From the NCBI GenBank assembly GCA_965247655.1, contig OZ252032.1:5339843-5403842 (forward strand): DNA of 64,000 nt, written 5' to 3'. A program made the translations under genes and the position numbers. Source of the DNA: Candidatus Poribacteria bacterium (GTDB lineage Bacteria > Poribacteria > WGA-4E > PCPOR2b). Shown here in pieces: positions 3,048-48,706 of this stretch. The notes below the pieces were generated by a model that was not told where the DNA came from, ran no database searches, and was given only the letters and a program-made list of their open reading frames with translations. Position 1 is the stretch's first letter. The number at the start of each line of letters is the position of its first letter.

Positions 3048-3354
3048 AAACTATTCCTTTTTTTGGTGCAAGTTTTCTATCACAGCGATAGATTTACTAT
3101 ATCCCGCCCCGGACCGCCCGTCGGAGGATTCTCTCCCGTGCGAAAGTTGCGGCTCCTTCGGCAAACTCAAGGTAGGCTTCTGGTCGGAACATAGACAACA
3201 CTGATTTGTAGGAGGGCGGGGCAAGGATCAAGGGGCTCGGAAATGCGTCACAGTCGAAACACAAGTGTGCCAAATCTTAGATGCTCTAGAGTTTGTGTCT
3301 CCGCTTTTATCTGCGTGAATCTGCGCCCCACAAAGACCAGTCGCCAGAAAAGGT

Positions 3355-4213: not shown

Positions 4214-5095
4214 TCAACGGCAAAGCGCACTGGTCCCTCTGCCCACGCGGGCCCCCCCCCCTGGTCCCGGAAGACGCAGGGTCGGTTTGCCACCTTCGGC
4301 ATCAACAACATAAATCCCAACAGATTCGAGGTCGTTACCTTCCAGCCCCCCAAAGGCAATTTGATCTCCCGCCGGCGACCAAGCGGGACCTTGGCCCGAA
4401 AAAGGTAAGTCTGTTAATTGCCGAATCTTTTTACGTCCTATCATATCCATGATGTAAATTTGCGACTTTCCATTTCGATCTGAACTAAATGCTAACTCGG
4501 TGCCATCGGAGGACCAAGCGGGGTAGTGATCATCCCCCGGATCGACGGTGAGCCGCCTTGGATTCAGTGGATTTATATCAATATTTATATCCATGAGGTA
4601 GATATCCCAATTCCCTTCGGCAAAGAGGTCAGAACGGAAGGCAATCTGAAGACCGTCTGGAGACCAAGTAGGTGACATACTAACCTGTGTTCCATGGATT
4701 TCTTTGCCCTCGCGCGTCTCTACATCAAAGATCCAGAGAGATAGCCCCTTCATTACGGCAATTTGACGTCCATCTGGAGACCAAGCCGGCCGAAAGAACG
4801 TACCGGCAGCAATATTTCTTCGATTTTTCTCGGCATCCATTACAACGAGTCTTCCATCGGATATAAAGGCGAGAAGCGTCCCATCTGGGGACCAGGCGGG
4901 CCAGCTGTCCCGTGCCAAATCGTCAGTCAACTGTATTGGTTCGCCGCCTTTTCCATCAACGACATAAATGTCCATGTTTCCATTTGGGGGGCGACGGGTA
5001 TATGCGAACTTATCTTCAGCCGCTTGTATCTTCATCAATTCAACACCCGGGGCAGTAAAAATCAGTGCCCAGAACAGCAAAGTCAACCCTCTCAT
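4214..5095 (-). CDS. TolB-like beta-propeller periplasmic protein
   Basis: PAWSPDGxxxAF repeats x5; start placed at internal ATG (MRGLTLLFWALIFTAPG signal peptide) preceded by AGGAG RBS, not at the longer ORF start 5239. Confidence 0.8.
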   Translation of the reverse strand: MRGLTLLFWALIFTAPGVELMKIQAAEDKFAYTRRPPNGNMDIYVVDGKGGEPIQLTDDLARDSWPAWSPDGTLLAFISDGRLVVMDAEKNRRNIAAGTFFRPAWSPDGRQIAVMKGLSLWIFDVETREGKEIHGTQVSMSPTWSPDGLQIAFRSDLFAEGNWDIYLMDINIDINPLNPRRLTVDPGDDHYPAWSSDGTELAFSSDRNGKSQIYIMDMIGRKKIRQLTDLPFSGQGPAWSPAGDQIAFGGLEGNDLESVGIYVVDAEGGKPTLRLPGPGGGARVGRGTSALCR

Positions 5096-43977: not shown

Positions 43978-45363
43978 ATGGAAGTATATAAGGCACAGTT
44001 AGCCTTTTCAGAAGTACAGTTGCGCCCACTTTATATCGAAGGGTACACCGACCAACTCAGTTACGCACCGGGCGAAGAGATCGGGTTTCATATTTCCACC
44101 AGCGCATCGGAGTATTCATTGGAGATTGTGCGCGTCGGTGCAACCCGTGAGTTGGTCTGGAGCGAGAACGAACTCCCCGGATCTGCACATTCAATACCAG
44201 AGGATGCATCGTCGCACGGCTGCCGCTGGCCCACGAGTTTCAAGCTGCGTGTACCAGATACATGGCGGAGCGGATACTACGAAGTGTCAATGCGAGCGGA
44301 GGATAACGGTGGGGATTTCACGTACAGAAACCGCCGAACCGCTGAAGGAACGATGCACTTCGTTGTGCGGTCTGCACAGCCGGGACGTGACACGAAGATT
44401 CTGCTTCAACTGGCGACGAACACTTATAACGCCTACAACAACTGGGGCGGATATAGCGTCTACAGTTATCATGGCCACAGCAACTTACAGGGGCATCGTA
44501 TTTCTTTCGACCGACCGATGGCGGGACTTTTTAGCAGATGGGAGTCATTCTTTGTGGAATGGGCGGAACAGAATGGCTACACACTCGATTATGCTGCTAA
44601 CAGCGACCTTGAGTTTCACCCGGAAATTTTGCAGGGATATCGGTTAGTGTTGAGCATCGGTCACGATGAATACTGGTCTGGAGGGATGCGAAACAACCTA
44701 GAGGCATTCATCGCTGACGGTGGAAATGCGGCGTTCTTTAGCGGAAATTCGGTCTGTTGGCAAGTCCGCAACGAAGACGAAGGACGCGCCTTGACCTGCT
44801 GGAAACAGTGGTACAATACGGATCCTATTTACAAGACAGGCGACTATCGAACCTTGAGTACCCTGTGGAGTCATTACCTCGTCGGTCGGCCTGAAAACGA
44901 ATTGACTGGCGTCGGTTTTCTCCACGGCGGCTACCACCTCAGCCACGGTCAGTTCATGGATGGTTCAGGTGAATACACAGTGCATCGCCCGGATCATTGG
45001 ATTTTTGAAGGGACAGATCTCAAACAGGAAGATACCTTCGGCGGTAAGCACACCATCGTGGGCTACGAGTGCGACGGCTGCGAGCTGAAAATTGTGGATG
45101 GGCTTCCCGTCCCAACACATCGGGATGGCACTCCCGATAGCTTCCTCATTCTTTGCACTGCCCCGGTACGTTGGCATCCAGACGACTGTGAGTGGTACGA
45201 ACGTTGGGATAGAGGTCACACCGGCACCGCGACGATGGGGATTTATACCCGTGGGGGAACCGTTTTCACCGCTGCTACAACCGATTGGGCACATGGACTG
45301 CAAGGCGGTGATCCGGTTGTGGAGCGCATCACACAAAATGTGCTTGATCGGTTGTCCCGTTAA
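43978..45363 (+). CDS. N,N-dimethylformamidase large-subunit-like family protein
   Basis: Overall similarity pattern to DmfA2-like proteins; AAGGAG RBS before ATG 43978. Confidence 0.4.
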   Translation: MEVYKAQLAFSEVQLRPLYIEGYTDQLSYAPGEEIGFHISTSASEYSLEIVRVGATRELVWSENELPGSAHSIPEDASSHGCRWPTSFKLRVPDTWRSGYYEVSMRAEDNGGDFTYRNRRTAEGTMHFVVRSAQPGRDTKILLQLATNTYNAYNNWGGYSVYSYHGHSNLQGHRISFDRPMAGLFSRWESFFVEWAEQNGYTLDYAANSDLEFHPEILQGYRLVLSIGHDEYWSGGMRNNLEAFIADGGNAAFFSGNSVCWQVRNEDEGRALTCWKQWYNTDPIYKTGDYRTLSTLWSHYLVGRPENELTGVGFLHGGYHLSHGQFMDGSGEYTVHRPDHWIFEGTDLKQEDTFGGKHTIVGYECDGCELKIVDGLPVPTHRDGTPDSFLILCTAPVRWHPDDCEWYERWDRGHTGTATMGIYTRGGTVFTAATTDWAHGLQGGDPVVERITQNVLDRLSR

Positions 45364-45375
45364 ACCGAATCAGGA

Positions 45376-46350
45376 TTAAAGTCTCCCCCGATGCCCTCGC
45401 TCAACGGCTTCGCACAGTTCCATCGTCTTCACCGCCTCCTCCAGCGGACTCCAAGGAGTGGTGTCGTTCAGGATGCAGTCGGCGAAATGGCGAGTTTCAT
45501 TGAAGTCGGGTCCACCAACAGCATCGAGGTCGAGCGGTTCCTCACATAGCACCCCGTCTAAGTAAAGAGTGATTTCCGGTGTGCGTGTCAAGTCGAGGTA
45601 CGCCGACATATCTTCGGTGTGGACCTCCGCTGACTGAATTCGGTAGCCGACCCCGTAGTGGCTCATCATTGTTCCGTGACAACCGTTGTCAAAGGCGATG
45701 ACAGCGTTGTAGCGAGGTGTGCCTTCCCGCTTGCCGTGCCACGAATGACCGTATACCTCTACAGCGGTTGCTGCTTCAGTTGGTGTGCGTCCTGCCATCC
45801 AACGCAGCAGATCGACATGGTGAATTGCATCGCAGATAATCTCCGGTGGTGCAACCTCCCGGAGGCCCGGACGTTGCAACCCCGATGGCGGTTTATGATA
45901 ATTTGCCGCGACCTGCACCGCTCCGCCACGCTCTTGCAGTAATTTGCGTACCGCCAACACCTCTGGCTTGTAACGGCGATTGACGGACAGAATCGCTTTG
46001 CCCTTACTCTTGCGGGCAGCGTCAAGCATCTGCTGTGTTTCTCCGACGTTCATTCCGGGTGATTTTTCGACCGACGTATGCAGATCACGCCCCAAACATT
46101 CTACCACAATCGGCAGCAGATGGCCGGGCATGGTAACGACGTAGACAATATCTAGGTCGACCTGATCCAGCATCTCGCGGTAATCGCTGAACGCCAATTC
46201 GGGTTTATGGGTGAGCTTTGCCTGCTCCAACCGTTGGTCATCAAGCTCCGCGACTGAGATGAGTGCCATCCGGGGTTCATCTTTAATCATCGCAAAGTGC
46301 CCCTGCGCGTGCCCACCACAGCCAATAACACCCACTTTCAGATCCGCCAT
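45376..46350 (-). CDS. Gfo/Idh/MocA family oxidoreductase
   Basis: LKVGVIGCGGHAQGH Rossmann N-terminus; GAGGAGGG RBS. Confidence 0.8.
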   Translation of the reverse strand: MADLKVGVIGCGGHAQGHFAMIKDEPRMALISVAELDDQRLEQAKLTHKPELAFSDYREMLDQVDLDIVYVVTMPGHLLPIVVECLGRDLHTSVEKSPGMNVGETQQMLDAARKSKGKAILSVNRRYKPEVLAVRKLLQERGGAVQVAANYHKPPSGLQRPGLREVAPPEIICDAIHHVDLLRWMAGRTPTEAATAVEVYGHSWHGKREGTPRYNAVIAFDNGCHGTMMSHYGVGYRIQSAEVHTEDMSAYLDLTRTPEITLYLDGVLCEEPLDLDAVGGPDFNETRHFADCILNDTTPWSPLEEAVKTMELCEAVERGHRGRL

Positions 46351-46648
46351 TGTACAAATCCCTCCTCTGTTGCTAAATTTTATCCAACGTGAATTTCCAT
46401 AGGGCTGCTAATCATAGCTTTGAGCCCCTGATCACCGGTCTGTTCCGCGAGTGCCAACGCAGTTTGGAAATCCTGCGCCGCTTCCGAGACACGACCTAGA
46501 TTGGTCGTCGCACAGAAACCTCTCTTCATCAAGCGTCTCCATCCATTCGTGTCGATCCACGGAATAATCGCCTTTGCCATCTTTGTACTGAAAAATTCTC
46601 TCCAAAAGCGCGTGAACCTCTGGATTCAGACGACGGAGTTTATTCATC

Positions 46649-47140
46649 TCAGCTTCTAGCAGATCTCGTATGTTCATCTTCAGCGATCTCCTCTAACCAT
46701 GCGTAAGGGTTTTCAACACGAACGCGAAGTTGCGAATGGAAGCGTTTCGCCCTTCTAAGCATCCGATCGTCTGTAGTTAGAAGGATATCCGTTCCACTGT
46801 TTTCGGCACAGGCAATATGCAAAGCATCCAACCACTTAAATCCCAACGATTTAAGTTGTGTGCATCGCATTTATTCCGACGCACCAACCGAGACATTTTG
46901 ATGTGCAAGACTTAGTAAGGCTTCCATATCATCGCGTAGTGTTGCATCAGGGGTTTTGCTGATTTCATTCACTAGAACCGTGCTAGTAGCCCACTGCCAG
47001 TCACTTGTGAAAAACCGAGCGAGAATTGTCTGAACGGCTTCAGTGTCACGGCGAATCCGCGCTTGCGTCTGATCATTAAAAAGACGATTCAAACAACAAG
47101 TATCAAGATATATTTTCCAGATTTGAAGAAGAGTTTGCAC
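46649..47140 (-). pseudogene. PIN-domain (VapC-like) toxin gene interrupted by in-frame TAA (plus-strand TTA at 46868..46870)
   Basis: N-part KIYLDTCCL...VNEISK and C-part LDALHIACAE...LLTTDDRM together give the four acidic PIN residues; split into ORFs 46871..47140 and 46649..46870 that are in the same frame. Confidence 0.65.
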
Positions 47141-47430
47141 ATGCTTTACTCTATTGGACAGACCTGTTTTTGTGGATTTGGTATCCCTCCGTACCTACCT
47201 GTCCATCTGTAGGCACCGCTGAGAGTTTAGAGACCCCCATTATTAATTCTACTCCTTAAGAAGCGCATGACAACTGCCCCCACCTCCGTTTTGGGAGCGA
47301 GAGGCAATCGCCGATACGCGTTAGACGTTACTCACCTTCAAAATAGAGGGGCGATGGTATTCACCACTCCTCCTAGTATTGATAGTGAGATTCTTTGGAC
47401 ATGCTCAAGCATGTCATTTATAGATTGAAC

Positions 47431-48324
47431 TTAAAAGAAAAACGGATTTGACCACGCTTTCTTGCCGGTCTCATCGGTAATCTCGACGCGGACGTACTTG
47501 ACGCTGTTCGGCACTTCATATGTTGCCTCGGTCAGGGCTTCCCCTTCGGGGGCGACAATGCGTTTTCCACGACTACGCTGGGCTTTGAACACGATGGATT
47601 GTGCCGGTGAACATTTGACGGAAACGCTCCGTTTCTCTTCACCTTCGTCCATCACGTCCAGATCAATTAGCTCCGGTCCGAGGGTTGAATAGAAAGCTCC
47701 GGTGCGAAACCCTGTCATAATAGCATCGGTGGTGAGTTCAGTAGCCTTCACCATGACCCATCCGTGAAAACAGTCGTGTTCCGTGCCGTGTGCGTCGTCG
47801 GAAGCGATGCCGAAGACGGGACGACCTGCCTTGTCCAATAAATCGTCCCAAGCCTGCTCAGAAAAGCCCTTGCCGATGCCCATGCAGGTGTCGTTGTAAA
47901 CTTCAACCGCGAAGTATCCATTCAGTGGCAGATAGTCCAAAAGCGTATGTCCACACCAGTAGGGGTGGCAGAGCACCGCCGCGCCCCCTTGCCGGTTTAT
48001 CTCTTCGATGACGGCGTTGGGATGCAATTCGGCGCAGTTGATGCGCTCATGGAGGTTTATACCGACGATATGATATGTGTCACCGCCATAGGGATTGCTG
48101 GGGTGGACCTCACTGCCAGAGATTGCCAAGAAGCCGTCCCTGCTGTGGGCGGAAACATCGTTGACCTTTCGATGATCGGTCAGCACTAAGAAATCGTAGC
48201 CTGCTTCACGATAAGCTGCGAAGCGGTCTGCCATCGGCAGCCTGCCGTCCGACTCGGTGCTATGGCTGTGGGTATTGCCGCGATACCACTGCCCGGACTG
48301 TTTGAAGGGGTTAACGTTTGACAT
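47431..48324 (-). CDS. PHP-domain metal-dependent phosphoesterase
   Basis: YRGNTHSHSTESDG PHP motif I; AAGGAGA RBS. Confidence 0.75.
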   Translation of the reverse strand: MSNVNPFKQSGQWYRGNTHSHSTESDGRLPMADRFAAYREAGYDFLVLTDHRKVNDVSAHSRDGFLAISGSEVHPSNPYGGDTYHIVGINLHERINCAELHPNAVIEEINRQGGAAVLCHPYWCGHTLLDYLPLNGYFAVEVYNDTCMGIGKGFSEQAWDDLLDKAGRPVFGIASDDAHGTEHDCFHGWVMVKATELTTDAIMTGFRTGAFYSTLGPELIDLDVMDEGEEKRSVSVKCSPAQSIVFKAQRSRGKRIVAPEGEALTEATYEVPNSVKYVRVEITDETGKKAWSNPFFF

Positions 48325-48706
48325 AAAAAATCTCCTTGTTGGTTTCGACAGTTTCGGTTGGGTACTTGTATTTTAACGCAAGTTGCTAGTTGAAAAACAC
48401 CGTTAAAAAATTCTCGGAATTTTCATAGTTTTCATAGTTTTCTCAAGTATTGGATAAAGATAAAAAAGCGGGGAACCCGCGCTACGACCCGTTTCTGTAC
48501 AATTTATACGGGAAGGCTACTCGGACATACTATGAAATCCACGTCGTTTCCTATTTCTGACGATTGGCTGATTAAAGTGGCAGCTTACGTTATTTTAACA
48601 CACTGCTTTCAAAACGAAAATGGAAAAACGATTCAAAACCGCCGAAAAAAAAGATTTACGATCGGGGTGCAGTCGTGTAAAATATAATTAAGGAGAATTG
48701 GTATAA

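What the first reader, a model, noticed from the sequence alone, without database searches (positions are those of the whole stretch)
46649..47430. Orphan PIN (VapC-like) toxin gene inactivated by an in-frame stop
The 89-aa and 73-aa ORFs are in the same frame, separated only by TAA at 46868-46870. Together they form a complete PIN domain carrying the conserved D, E, D and D residues. No antitoxin-sized ORF of 60 aa or more lies upstream (47141-47430) or overlaps the start. The gene begins with GTG. This looks like a decaying toxin-antitoxin locus, or one fixed after antitoxin loss. A stop-codon readthrough or sequencing-error explanation is also possible.
Basis: seen in the sequence. Interest (0 to 1): 0.5.

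Follow-up and report, generated by a model that had tools for sequence, protein, structure and literature searches.

The report
Dead PIN toxin gene, broken partner
This is a recently killed copy of a PIN-nuclease gene from a sponge-symbiont (Poribacteria) genome; its partner gene lies downstream, not upstream, is also broken, and relatives show the same order of decay repeatedly, partner truncated first and nuclease knocked out afterwards.

Summary
The premature TAA is at 46871-46873; 46868-46870 is the ATG of the second ORF. The fused 163 aa form one PIN domain with D13/E59/D105/D124. Over 1,000 homologues are single proteins of about 160 aa. A contig 98.6% identical in DNA reads CAA-ACG where the window reads TAA-ATG, so this is a recent nonsense mutation (Q90*).

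"Orphan" is wrong. In 80 of 81 family loci, all Candidatus Poribacteria or unnamed MAGs, the PIN gene sits beside a roughly 55-aa helical module with no Pfam or NCBIfam match. It usually starts 13-37 nt before the PIN stop, and in four loci it is fused in frame to PIN. At this locus the module heads a 564-aa trypsin-like-protease/TPR protein. In the window a frameshifting internal deletion (989-1396 bp, depending on the reference) has reduced that protein to an 81-aa ORF (46432-46677).

Other assemblies carry the same deletion with a different PIN stop (W48*). Further independent partner deletions come with Q137*, a 5' deletion, multiple frameshifts or a TnpB insertion. Every deletion spares the module.

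Best reading: a decaying reverse-order, toxin-antitoxin-like cassette. The pseudogene is ordinary; the family and its ordered decay are mildly novel.

The parts
46871..47140 (-). N-terminal fragment of the PIN pseudogene. It covers codons 1-89 plus the premature stop, starts with GTG at 47140-47138, and carries D13 and E59.
   Evidence: ORF list and translation. Alignment to intact 163-aa orthologues. The 89-aa product is on record as P0081, from a 6.74-Mb contig.
46871..46873 (-). Premature TAA, i.e. Q90* from CAA>TAA, a C>T transition. It falls in helix 87-98, just after strand 81-83 of the modelled PIN fold.
   Evidence: In DNA alignment A2 the window reads GGAA TAA ATG CGATGC where L001 and L003 read GGAA CAA ACG CGATGC. 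Codon table against L082. AF2 model of the 96%-identical P0001, pLDDT 91.6.
46868..46870 (-). ATG created by a second C>T change 4 nt away (T91M, ACG>ATG). It opens the 73-aa ORF directly after the stop.
46649..46870 (-). C-terminal fragment of the PIN pseudogene, codons 91-163 plus the native TGA stop. It carries D105 and D124.
46513..46677 (-). Retained native N-terminus of the partner gene, 55 codons (MNIRDLLEAEMNKLRRLNPEVHALLERIFQYKDGKGDYSVDRHEWMETLDEERFL). This is the PIN-associated helical module. Its ATG at 46677 lies 29 nt inside the PIN reading frame.
   Evidence: A module HMM hits window 46677-46507 at E 1.8e-17. Alignment A3/A4. No Pfam, NCBIfam or PADLOC match.
46432..46677 (-). 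81-aa ORF left by the deletion: 55 native residues followed by 26 out-of-frame residues.
   Evidence: An identical protein, P0217, is on record from the 6.74-Mb contig.
46512..46513 (-). Deletion junction inside the partner gene (TTTCTG|TGCGAC, about 2 bp of microhomology). Missing are 1396 bp relative to L001-L003 and 989 bp relative to L005: the trypsin-like protease domain and nearly all TPR repeats. The deletion shifts the frame.
   Evidence: blastn breakpoints. Junction sequences. The same junction occurs, with no gaps, in L083 and L086-L089.
46380..46512 (-). Stranded 3' remnant of the partner gene: the last TPR and C-terminus (..TNLGRVSEAAQDFQTALALAEQTGDQGLKAMISSPMEIHVG*). It is now out of frame with the 5' part.
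   Evidence: Weak TPR hits for the 66-aa ORF. Alignment to the ends of the 564-aa and 444-aa partners.
47141..47430 (-). Upstream spacer with no antitoxin-like ORF. It holds one promoter-like site at 47273-47246 (10 of 12 matches). The same spacer occurs in L082, which has an intact cassette.
47431..48324 (-). Upstream flank: a conserved 297-aa gene. It is not part of the cassette and serves as the synteny anchor.
45376..46350 (-). Downstream flank: a Gfo/Idh/MocA-type oxidoreductase gene of 324 aa. It is not part of the cassette and serves as the synteny anchor.

Best explanation
The window holds the wreck of a two-gene cassette specific to Candidatus Poribacteria.

Gene 1 encodes a 163-aa nuclease with a VapC-like PIN fold. 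Gene 2 starts 29 nt before the PIN stop. It encodes a roughly 55-aa helical module that is the constant companion of this PIN family, and at this locus the module is fused to a trypsin-like protease and a TPR array (564 aa in intact relatives).

In the window's lineage an internal, frameshifting deletion first removed the protease and TPR part. It left the module inside an 81-aa ORF. Later a CAA>TAA transition stopped PIN at codon 90. The product therefore lacks D105 and D124 and cannot form the four-carboxylate active site. This part is shown by sequence comparison.

Inferred mechanism of the intact cassette: PIN is a Mg-dependent RNase toxin, and the module binds and neutralises it, acting as an antitoxin encoded after the toxin and translationally coupled to it. 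The protease/TPR extension modulates or senses.

Inferred logic of the decay: the module cannot be lost while PIN is active, so deletions always spare it. Once the partner is crippled, PIN is either harmful or useless and gets knocked out.
For: PIN identity
- Pfam match across the stop.
- Invariant D13/E59/D105/D124.
- AF2 pLDDT 91.6.
- The best solved folds are VapC toxins from VapBC complexes, TM 0.6-0.7 normalised to the target.

Recent nonsense mutation
- L082 is 98.6% identical with no gaps. It carries an intact PIN and an intact 564-aa partner.
- L001-L005 are intact too.

Partner linkage
- The module lies on the same strand in 81 of 81 loci and is never on the opposite strand.
- It overlaps downstream in 65, lies upstream-adjacent in 12, is fused in frame in 4 and is distant in 1.

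Deletion
-.

Order of events
- L083 and L086-L089 share the window's junction exactly but carry W48* with Q90 intact.
- L091/L092 and L093 appear to share a second deletion, with breakpoints agreeing within about 4 nt by blastn. One has lost PIN codons 1-103; the other has multiple stops and frameshifts.
- L090 has an independent deletion plus Q137*.
- L085 has an independent deletion plus an IS605 TnpB insertion in the PIN 3' end.
- All four deletions begin at partner codons ~54-81 and so spare the module.
- All ten assemblies with a truncated partner have a damaged PIN. Six of seven with an intact partner have an intact PIN; the exception is L084, where an IS replaces codons 1-55.

Function where intact
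- PIN dN/dS is 0.15-0.38 between distant intact orthologues.
Against: - No biochemical evidence exists that this PIN is toxic or that the module neutralises it.
- The module model is low-confidence (pLDDT 62) and matches no known antitoxin family.
- Neutral decay after loss of function would also give dead PINs in lineages with a deleted partner. The statistical case for selection is only suggestive. About 4.2% of random substitutions in this gene create stops. L083's single lineage-specific PIN substitution is the stop, and the window has one stop among six lineage-specific changes.
- Q90* itself is seen only in this one assembly and could not be checked against reads.
- Metagenome assemblies may mix strains.
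Confidence: 0.82

Rival explanations
1. Sequencing or assembly error: the real genome has CAA (Gln) at codon 90 and the PIN gene is intact.
For: Q90* is found only in this assembly; P0081 is a cluster of one sequence on one contig. No reads could be examined.
Against: The lesion is two substitutions (C>T, C>T), not a homopolymer indel. The 64-kb window is otherwise packed with 44 uninterrupted ORFs of 200 aa or more. The same operon carries an independent large deletion that is confirmed in at least five other assemblies. Three other PIN nonsense or deletion alleles exist at this locus, so inactivation here is expected.
Confidence: 0.05
2. Classical orphan VapC: an upstream RHH/AbrB/Phd-type antitoxin was lost and the toxin was then fixed in inactive form.
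For: No ORF of 60 aa or more lies upstream. L001-L004 carry an extra upstream ORF of 86-264 aa that the window lacks.
Against: That extra ORF has a transmembrane-like N-terminus and no Pfam match. It is absent from L005 and L082, whose cassettes are intact. The small upstream ORFs have no family match. The family's constant partner is the downstream module.
Confidence: 0.03
3. A functional split PIN. The TAA-ATG junction allows termination and re-initiation, and the 89-aa and 73-aa pieces reassemble into an active or regulatory nuclease.
For: A second mutation 4 nt from the stop creates an ATG immediately after it. The cut lies near a strand/helix boundary. Each fragment carries two of the four acidic residues.
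Against: No clear Shine-Dalgarno sequence precedes the ATG. The cut is inside helix 87-98. The sister allele is cut elsewhere, at W48*, with no adjacent start codon. The window lineage has accumulated mostly non-synonymous changes (6 of 7 against L082). The partner gene is broken as well.
Confidence: 0.04
4. Stop-codon readthrough or a reassigned TAA gives a full-length PIN.
For: None beyond the in-frame arrangement.
Against: TAA ends 11 of 44 long ORFs in the window, including both flanking genes, whose lengths match their orthologues. The only tRNA in the window is tRNA-Ala. Orthologues encode Gln with CAA at this codon.
Confidence: 0.02
5. The cassette is not a toxin-antitoxin pair. It is a cooperative defence or signalling module in which PIN and the protease/TPR protein act together. 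Loss of the protease/TPR part made PIN useless, and the stop is neutral decay.
For: The protease domain resembles protease effectors in PADLOC models: RT-Protease_XI at E 4e-15, plus LmuA and HamA variants. Partners are fused to TPR or protease in several paralogues. The expected number of neutral nonsense hits is not negligible.
Against: Most family members pair PIN with only the short module, as one or two copies in proteins of 60-165 aa. So the protease/TPR part is an add-on, not the core. All four independent deletions start just after the module, which neutral decay does not predict.
Confidence: 0.15

Closest known systems
VapBC type II toxin-antitoxin systems (PIN-domain VapC toxin)
   Same: PIN fold with four conserved acidic residues. 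The best structural matches are VapC toxins from solved VapBC complexes. It is a small two-gene operon with overlapping reading frames, present in many copies per genome. Sponge symbionts are reported to be enriched in TA genes, including VapC (PMC5649159).
   Different: The partner is encoded after the toxin rather than before it in 65 of 81 loci. The partner has no RHH, AbrB, Phd or HTH DNA-binding domain and no Pfam or NCBIfam match. No NCBIfam VapC model hits this PIN. The protein is about 30 aa longer than typical VapC proteins and has a KIYLDTCC motif. In the window the toxin gene is a pseudogene.
Reverse-order type II TA systems (toxin gene first, for example HigBA and MqsRA; from general knowledge, not tested here)
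   Same: The toxin gene precedes its partner and is translationally coupled to it.
   Different: Those toxins are RelE-like or MqsR folds, not PIN. Their antitoxins are HTH DNA binders. No homology was found.
PIN-associated antitoxin COG2442/DUF433 (Makarova et al. 2009, as cited in PMC5649159)
   Same: A small non-canonical protein genetically linked to PIN toxins. It is reported as enriched in sponge symbionts, Cyanobacteria and Chloroflexi.
   Different: The module here gives no Pfam hit at E<=1, so it is not DUF433.
Protease-containing anti-phage systems in PADLOC (RT-Protease class XI, Lamassu LmuA and Hachiman HamA variants)
   Same: The trypsin-like domain of the intact 564-aa partner matches these protease models at E 4e-15 to 3e-3.
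   Different: Only the protease domain matches. No reverse transcriptase, LmuB/C or HamB partner is present, and the whole domain is deleted in the window.

Membership tests
PIN domain (Pfam PF01850) | Profile match above the curated cut-off | tested here: met
   The fused translation scores 35.2 bits against a 23.6 cut-off, covering profile positions 1-118 of 120. Neither fragment alone passes: no hit, and 23.0 bits.
PIN domain (Pfam PF01850) | Four conserved acidic residues | tested here: met
   D13, E59, D105 and D124 are present in the window's two fragments and invariant in 40 homologues.
PIN domain (Pfam PF01850) | PIN alpha/beta fold | tested here: met
   AF2 model of the 96%-identical P0001, pLDDT 91.6. 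The top 17 Foldseek PDB hits are PIN/VapC proteins with probability 1.00. The first hit not named as PIN or VapC is the cyclodehydratase RohQ at rank 18.
PIN domain (Pfam PF01850) | One uninterrupted polypeptide carrying all four residues | tested here: not met
   TAA at codon 90 separates D13/E59 from D105/D124.
VapBC type II toxin-antitoxin system | Upstream antitoxin gene with a DNA-binding domain (RHH, AbrB, Phd/YefM or HTH) | tested here: not met
   No such ORF lies in 47141-47430, and small ORFs there have no Pfam hit. The intact relative L082 has the same empty spacer. The partner is downstream and matches no family.
VapBC type II toxin-antitoxin system | Match to curated VapC family models | tested here: not met
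   NCBIfam gives no VapC-type hit at E<=1. There is no sequence match to any PDB chain at E<=0.1. The similarity is at the fold level only.
VapBC type II toxin-antitoxin system | Toxin is an RNase whose toxicity is neutralised by direct binding of the partner | not testable with these tools
   The evidence is indirect: universal adjacency, overlap, four in-frame fusions, and retention of the module in every decayed allele.
Poribacterial PIN-plus-module cassette (uncharacterised; defined here from 81 loci) | PIN with the K[IV]YLDTCC motif, about 150-165 aa | tested here: met
   The window reads KIYLDTCC and the fused length is 163 aa.
Poribacterial PIN-plus-module cassette (uncharacterised; defined here from 81 loci) | Same-strand partner bearing the ..GDY[ST]x[DE]RHxW.. 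module, adjacent to or overlapping the PIN gene | tested here: met
   Module HMM hit at 46677-46507, E 1.8e-17, starting 29 nt before the PIN stop.
Poribacterial PIN-plus-module cassette (uncharacterised; defined here from 81 loci) | Full-length partner as in orthologues (module plus Trypsin_2 plus TPR, 428-565 aa) | tested here: not met
   An internal deletion of 989-1396 bp with a frameshift.
Pseudogene | Premature stop relative to near-identical intact orthologues | tested here: met
   L082 (98.6% nucleotide identity) and L001-L005 read CAA or AAA/AGA at codon 90 and are uninterrupted.
Pseudogene | The stop is real in the organism (read support) | not testable with these tools
   No reads are available, and the allele is seen in one assembly only.

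The most novel reading that the evidence does not exclude
The roughly 55-aa module is a previously undescribed PIN-neutralising antitoxin domain. Poribacteria have fused it repeatedly to sensor or effector parts (a second module, TPR arrays, a trypsin-like protease, or PIN itself). This locus is a natural record of addiction logic. Deletions may remove the protease/TPR sensor but never the module. Once the sensor is gone, the unregulated or poorly neutralised PIN is selected against, giving at least five independent knock-outs (Q90*, W48*, Q137*, a 5' deletion, multiple frameshifts), plus a TnpB-disrupted 3' end in L085.
Probability: 0.3. Interest if true: 0.55.

Novelty: new variant of a known kind. 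Interest (0 to 1): 0.35.

Why it matters
The pseudogene alone is ordinary. Three things give it some value.

1. It corrects the annotation logic. In this large Poribacteria-wide PIN family, searching upstream for an antitoxin will always fail, because the partner is a downstream, overlapping module that no database recognises.

2. The locus offers a replicated natural experiment on the order in which a toxin-partner cassette decays. There are four independent partner deletions that all spare the module, and each is followed by independent toxin knock-outs. This is testable evidence that the module is the neutralising part.

3. Fusions of the module to protease/TPR proteins suggest sensor-coupled PIN systems in sponge symbionts, a group already reported to be rich in TA and defence genes.

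Tried and rejected
- Upstream antitoxin search: Pfam at E<=10 on all six small ORFs in or overlapping 47141-47430 found nothing, and Rfam on 46200-47600 found nothing. The promoter and terminator scan gave counts close to those of shuffled sequence.
- Partner module: NCBIfam and PADLOC found nothing. A PDB sequence search with the module profile gave only chance-level hits at E>=0.045, and the PIN profile found nothing.
- Module structure: the AF2 model had pLDDT 62, too poor for a fold search, so none was run.
- Source genome: exact look-ups of the window's own products (P0081, P0217) to recover the source contig found no gene on record.
- Variable upstream ORF in L001-L004: considered as a candidate antitoxin and rejected, because it is absent from the intact cassettes L005 and L082.
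- ThiG-like (256 aa) and sulfite-reductase-like (814 aa) neighbours of paralogues: considered and rejected as housekeeping flanks.
- Literature searches found only general statements on TA enrichment in sponge symbionts and nothing on this family.
- A control dN/dS calculation on the 297-aa flank failed with a script error and was not repeated.

Full report
**1. What is in the sequence**

On the minus strand an 89-aa ORF (46871..47140, GTG start) is followed in the same frame by a 73-aa ORF (46649..46870). The stop between them is TAA at 46873-46871.

Joined, the 163 residues match Pfam PIN (PF01850) from profile position 1 to 118 of 120 (35.2 bits, cut-off 23.6). Neither half passes alone. 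D13, E59, D105 and D124 are present, and they are invariant across 40 homologues.

**2. It is a recent nonsense mutation, not two genes**

A protein search found 1,167 relatives. Those listed are nearly all single proteins of 146-170 aa, up to 96% identical. Every source name is 'Candidatus Poribacteria'.

Five syntenic loci (L001-L005) and a 2.7-kb contig (L082) carry an uninterrupted 163-aa gene. L082 is 98.6% identical to window 47639-46513 without a gap.

Where the window reads GAA TAA ATG, L082, L001 and L003 read [GA]AA CAA ACG. That is two C>T transitions 4 nt apart, giving Q90* and T91M.

- The stop falls in helix 87-98 of a confident model (pLDDT 91.6), so the product lacks D105 and D124.
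- TAA is a normal stop here, ending 11 of 44 long ORFs including both neighbours.
- The window encodes only tRNA-Ala.

**3. The partner is downstream, and it is broken too**

In the syntenic loci the PIN gene is followed by a 564-aa gene (444-565 aa in some relatives). It starts 28-29 nt before the PIN stop and encodes Trypsin_2 plus eight TPR repeats. After it comes the Gfo/Idh/MocA gene that also flanks the window's locus.

blastn shows that the window lacks 1396 bp relative to L001-L003, or 989 bp relative to L005, from inside this gene. The junction is at 46513/46512 (TTTCTG|TGCGAC, about 2 bp of microhomology) and it shifts the frame. Two pieces remain:

- an 81-aa ORF (46432..46677) made of 55 native residues and 26 out-of-frame residues;
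- a stranded C-terminal TPR remnant (46380-46512).

**4. What the partner is**

I built an HMM from the first ~60 residues of the downstream genes and searched it against six-frame translations of 81 family loci from 185,579 species genomes. All of these loci are Poribacteria or unnamed MAGs.

The HMM hit every locus, always on the PIN strand:

| Position of the module | Loci |
|---|---|
| Starts 13-37 nt before, or at, the PIN stop | 65 |
| Just upstream of PIN (one of these loci also has the downstream module and is counted in the row above) | 12 |
| Fused in frame to PIN (222-230 aa proteins) | 4 |
| 1.35 kb away | 1 |

The module has the consensus M..L.MTD.EIYELG...L..KLGP.G..RFL.Q...G.GDYSV[DE]RH.W. 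It occurs alone (60-70 aa), doubled (about 160 aa), or fused to TPR or protease-TPR.

It has no Pfam, NCBIfam, PADLOC or PDB-sequence match. It models as four helices at low confidence (pLDDT 62). The window keeps it intact (46677-46507, E 1.8e-17).

**5. The empty upstream region is normal for this cassette**

- L082 has the same 290-bp spacer and an intact cassette.
- The small ORFs in the spacer match nothing, and Rfam finds nothing.
- An extra ORF seen upstream in L001-L004 is missing from the intact L005 and L082, so it is not a required part.

**6. Alleles elsewhere give the order of events**

| Loci | Partner gene | PIN gene |
|---|---|---|
| L001-L005, L082 | intact | intact |
| L084 | intact (428 aa) | codons 1-55 replaced by an IS |
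| Window | deletion A | Q90* |
| L083, L086-L089 (four samples, one a 6.94-Mb genome) | deletion A, identical junction, no gaps | W48* (TGG>TAG), Q90 intact |
| L091/L092 | second deletion (about L005 5706\|6656) | codons 1-103 deleted |
| L093 | apparently the same second deletion (within about 4 nt) | several stops and frameshifts |
| L090 | independent deletion/replacement after codon ~54 | Q137* |
| L085 | independent deletion after codon ~59 | IS605 TnpB element in the 3' end |

- Two partner deletions are each shared by lineages with different PIN lesions, so in both cases the deletion came first.
- All four deletions start at partner codons ~54-81 of 564, directly after the module.
- Every allele with a truncated partner has a damaged PIN.

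Between distant intact orthologues PIN dN/dS is 0.15-0.38, so the gene is under constraint where the cassette is whole.

**7. Interpretation**

Shown by the sequence comparisons:

- a PIN pseudogene in a cassette whose partner gene is also disrupted;
- the partner lies downstream;
- the same locus has decayed repeatedly in related genomes.

Inferred: the module is the PIN-neutralising (antitoxin-like) part. The grounds are constant linkage, overlap that suggests translational coupling, natural fusions, and the fact that no decayed allele has lost the module. The protease/TPR part is an accessory sensor or regulator. Its protease domain resembles protease effectors of defence systems.

Whether the PIN knock-outs were selected or neutral is open. 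About 4.2% of random substitutions in this gene create a stop. In L083 the only lineage-specific PIN change is the stop, and in the window one of six is. That is suggestive, not decisive.

**8. Rivals**

- Sequencing error (about 0.05): this allele is seen in one assembly only. But it consists of substitutions, the window is otherwise clean, and the operon has a second, independently confirmed lesion.
- Split functional PIN through the TAA-ATG junction (about 0.04): there is no clear ribosome-binding site, and the sister allele is cut at a different place.
- Readthrough (about 0.02).
- Classical loss of an upstream antitoxin (about 0.03).
- A cooperative, non-TA defence module that decayed neutrally (about 0.15).

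**9. Comparison with known systems**

The fold is VapC-like. Membership of VapBC fails on two defining features: there is no upstream DNA-binding antitoxin, and no curated VapC model matches.

The cassette is best described as a reverse-order, VapC-like TA-type cassette with an undescribed partner domain. It is a new variant of a known kind, and the window's copy is a dead member. Sponge symbionts are already reported to be enriched in TA genes (PMC5649159).

**10. Verdict**

Interest is low to moderate (0.35). The pseudogene is ordinary. The uncharacterised partner module and the replicated decay order are the parts worth following up.

Noticed in passing
window 45001-48600, compared with L001/L003 and L005: Mosaic ancestry. 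The flanks are 95.5-96.4% identical to L005 (OZ244950.1) but 86-89% to L001/L003. The PIN-plus-module segment 47213-46513 is 96% identical to L001/L003 and only 90% to L005. PIN dS is 0.009 against L001 and 0.205 against L005. The cassette allele seems to have been exchanged between Poribacteria lineages by recombination.
   Followed up: partly
L030, L040, L042, L065 (PIN ORFs starting at position 5001): Four loci encode in-frame PIN::module fusion proteins of 222-230 aa. This is a Rosetta-stone argument for a physical PIN-module interaction.
   Followed up: partly
L001 4293-4991, L002 4533-4880, L004 (264-aa ORF): A variable extra ORF of 86-264 aa lies between the 297-aa gene and PIN in some orthologous loci only. 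It has a hydrophobic N-terminus and no Pfam match. It is absent from the window, L005 and L082.
   Followed up: partly
L082 963-2657 (intact 564-aa partner): Its trypsin-like domain matches PADLOC protease models from defence systems: RT-Protease_XI at E 4e-15, LmuA at 8e-7 and HamA at 3e-3.
   Followed up: no
L084 3311-3766 and L085 4503-5603: Mobile elements sit in the same cassette in other genomes. A DDE_Tnp_1 transposase replaces the PIN 5' end in L084, and an IS605 OrfB/TnpB gene is inserted at the PIN 3' end in L085.
   Followed up: partly
L090 about 3130-3243: About 110 bp of unrelated sequence replaces the deleted partner body. It contains the inverted repeat GGTCGAGATTCATATCTCGAC and may be a mobile-element footprint.
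   Followed up: no
PIN genes of L082, L001, L003 and the window: Among the closest alleles almost every difference is non-synonymous (L082-L001 7:0, L001-L003 3:1, window-L003 11:0). Distant intact orthologues give dN/dS of 0.15-0.38. The counts are too small to tell relaxed from diversifying selection.
   Followed up: partly
window 47313-47415: About 100 bp of the upstream spacer has no counterpart in L005 but is present in L082 and L083.
   Followed up: no
Paralogous loci such as L012, L013, L017, L020-L023: Many paralogous PIN-module cassettes sit directly downstream of a 256-aa ThiG-like gene. The closest short-partner clade (L006-L011) sits after an 814-aa sulfite-reductase-like gene. This suggests a few preferred insertion sites.
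   Followed up: no
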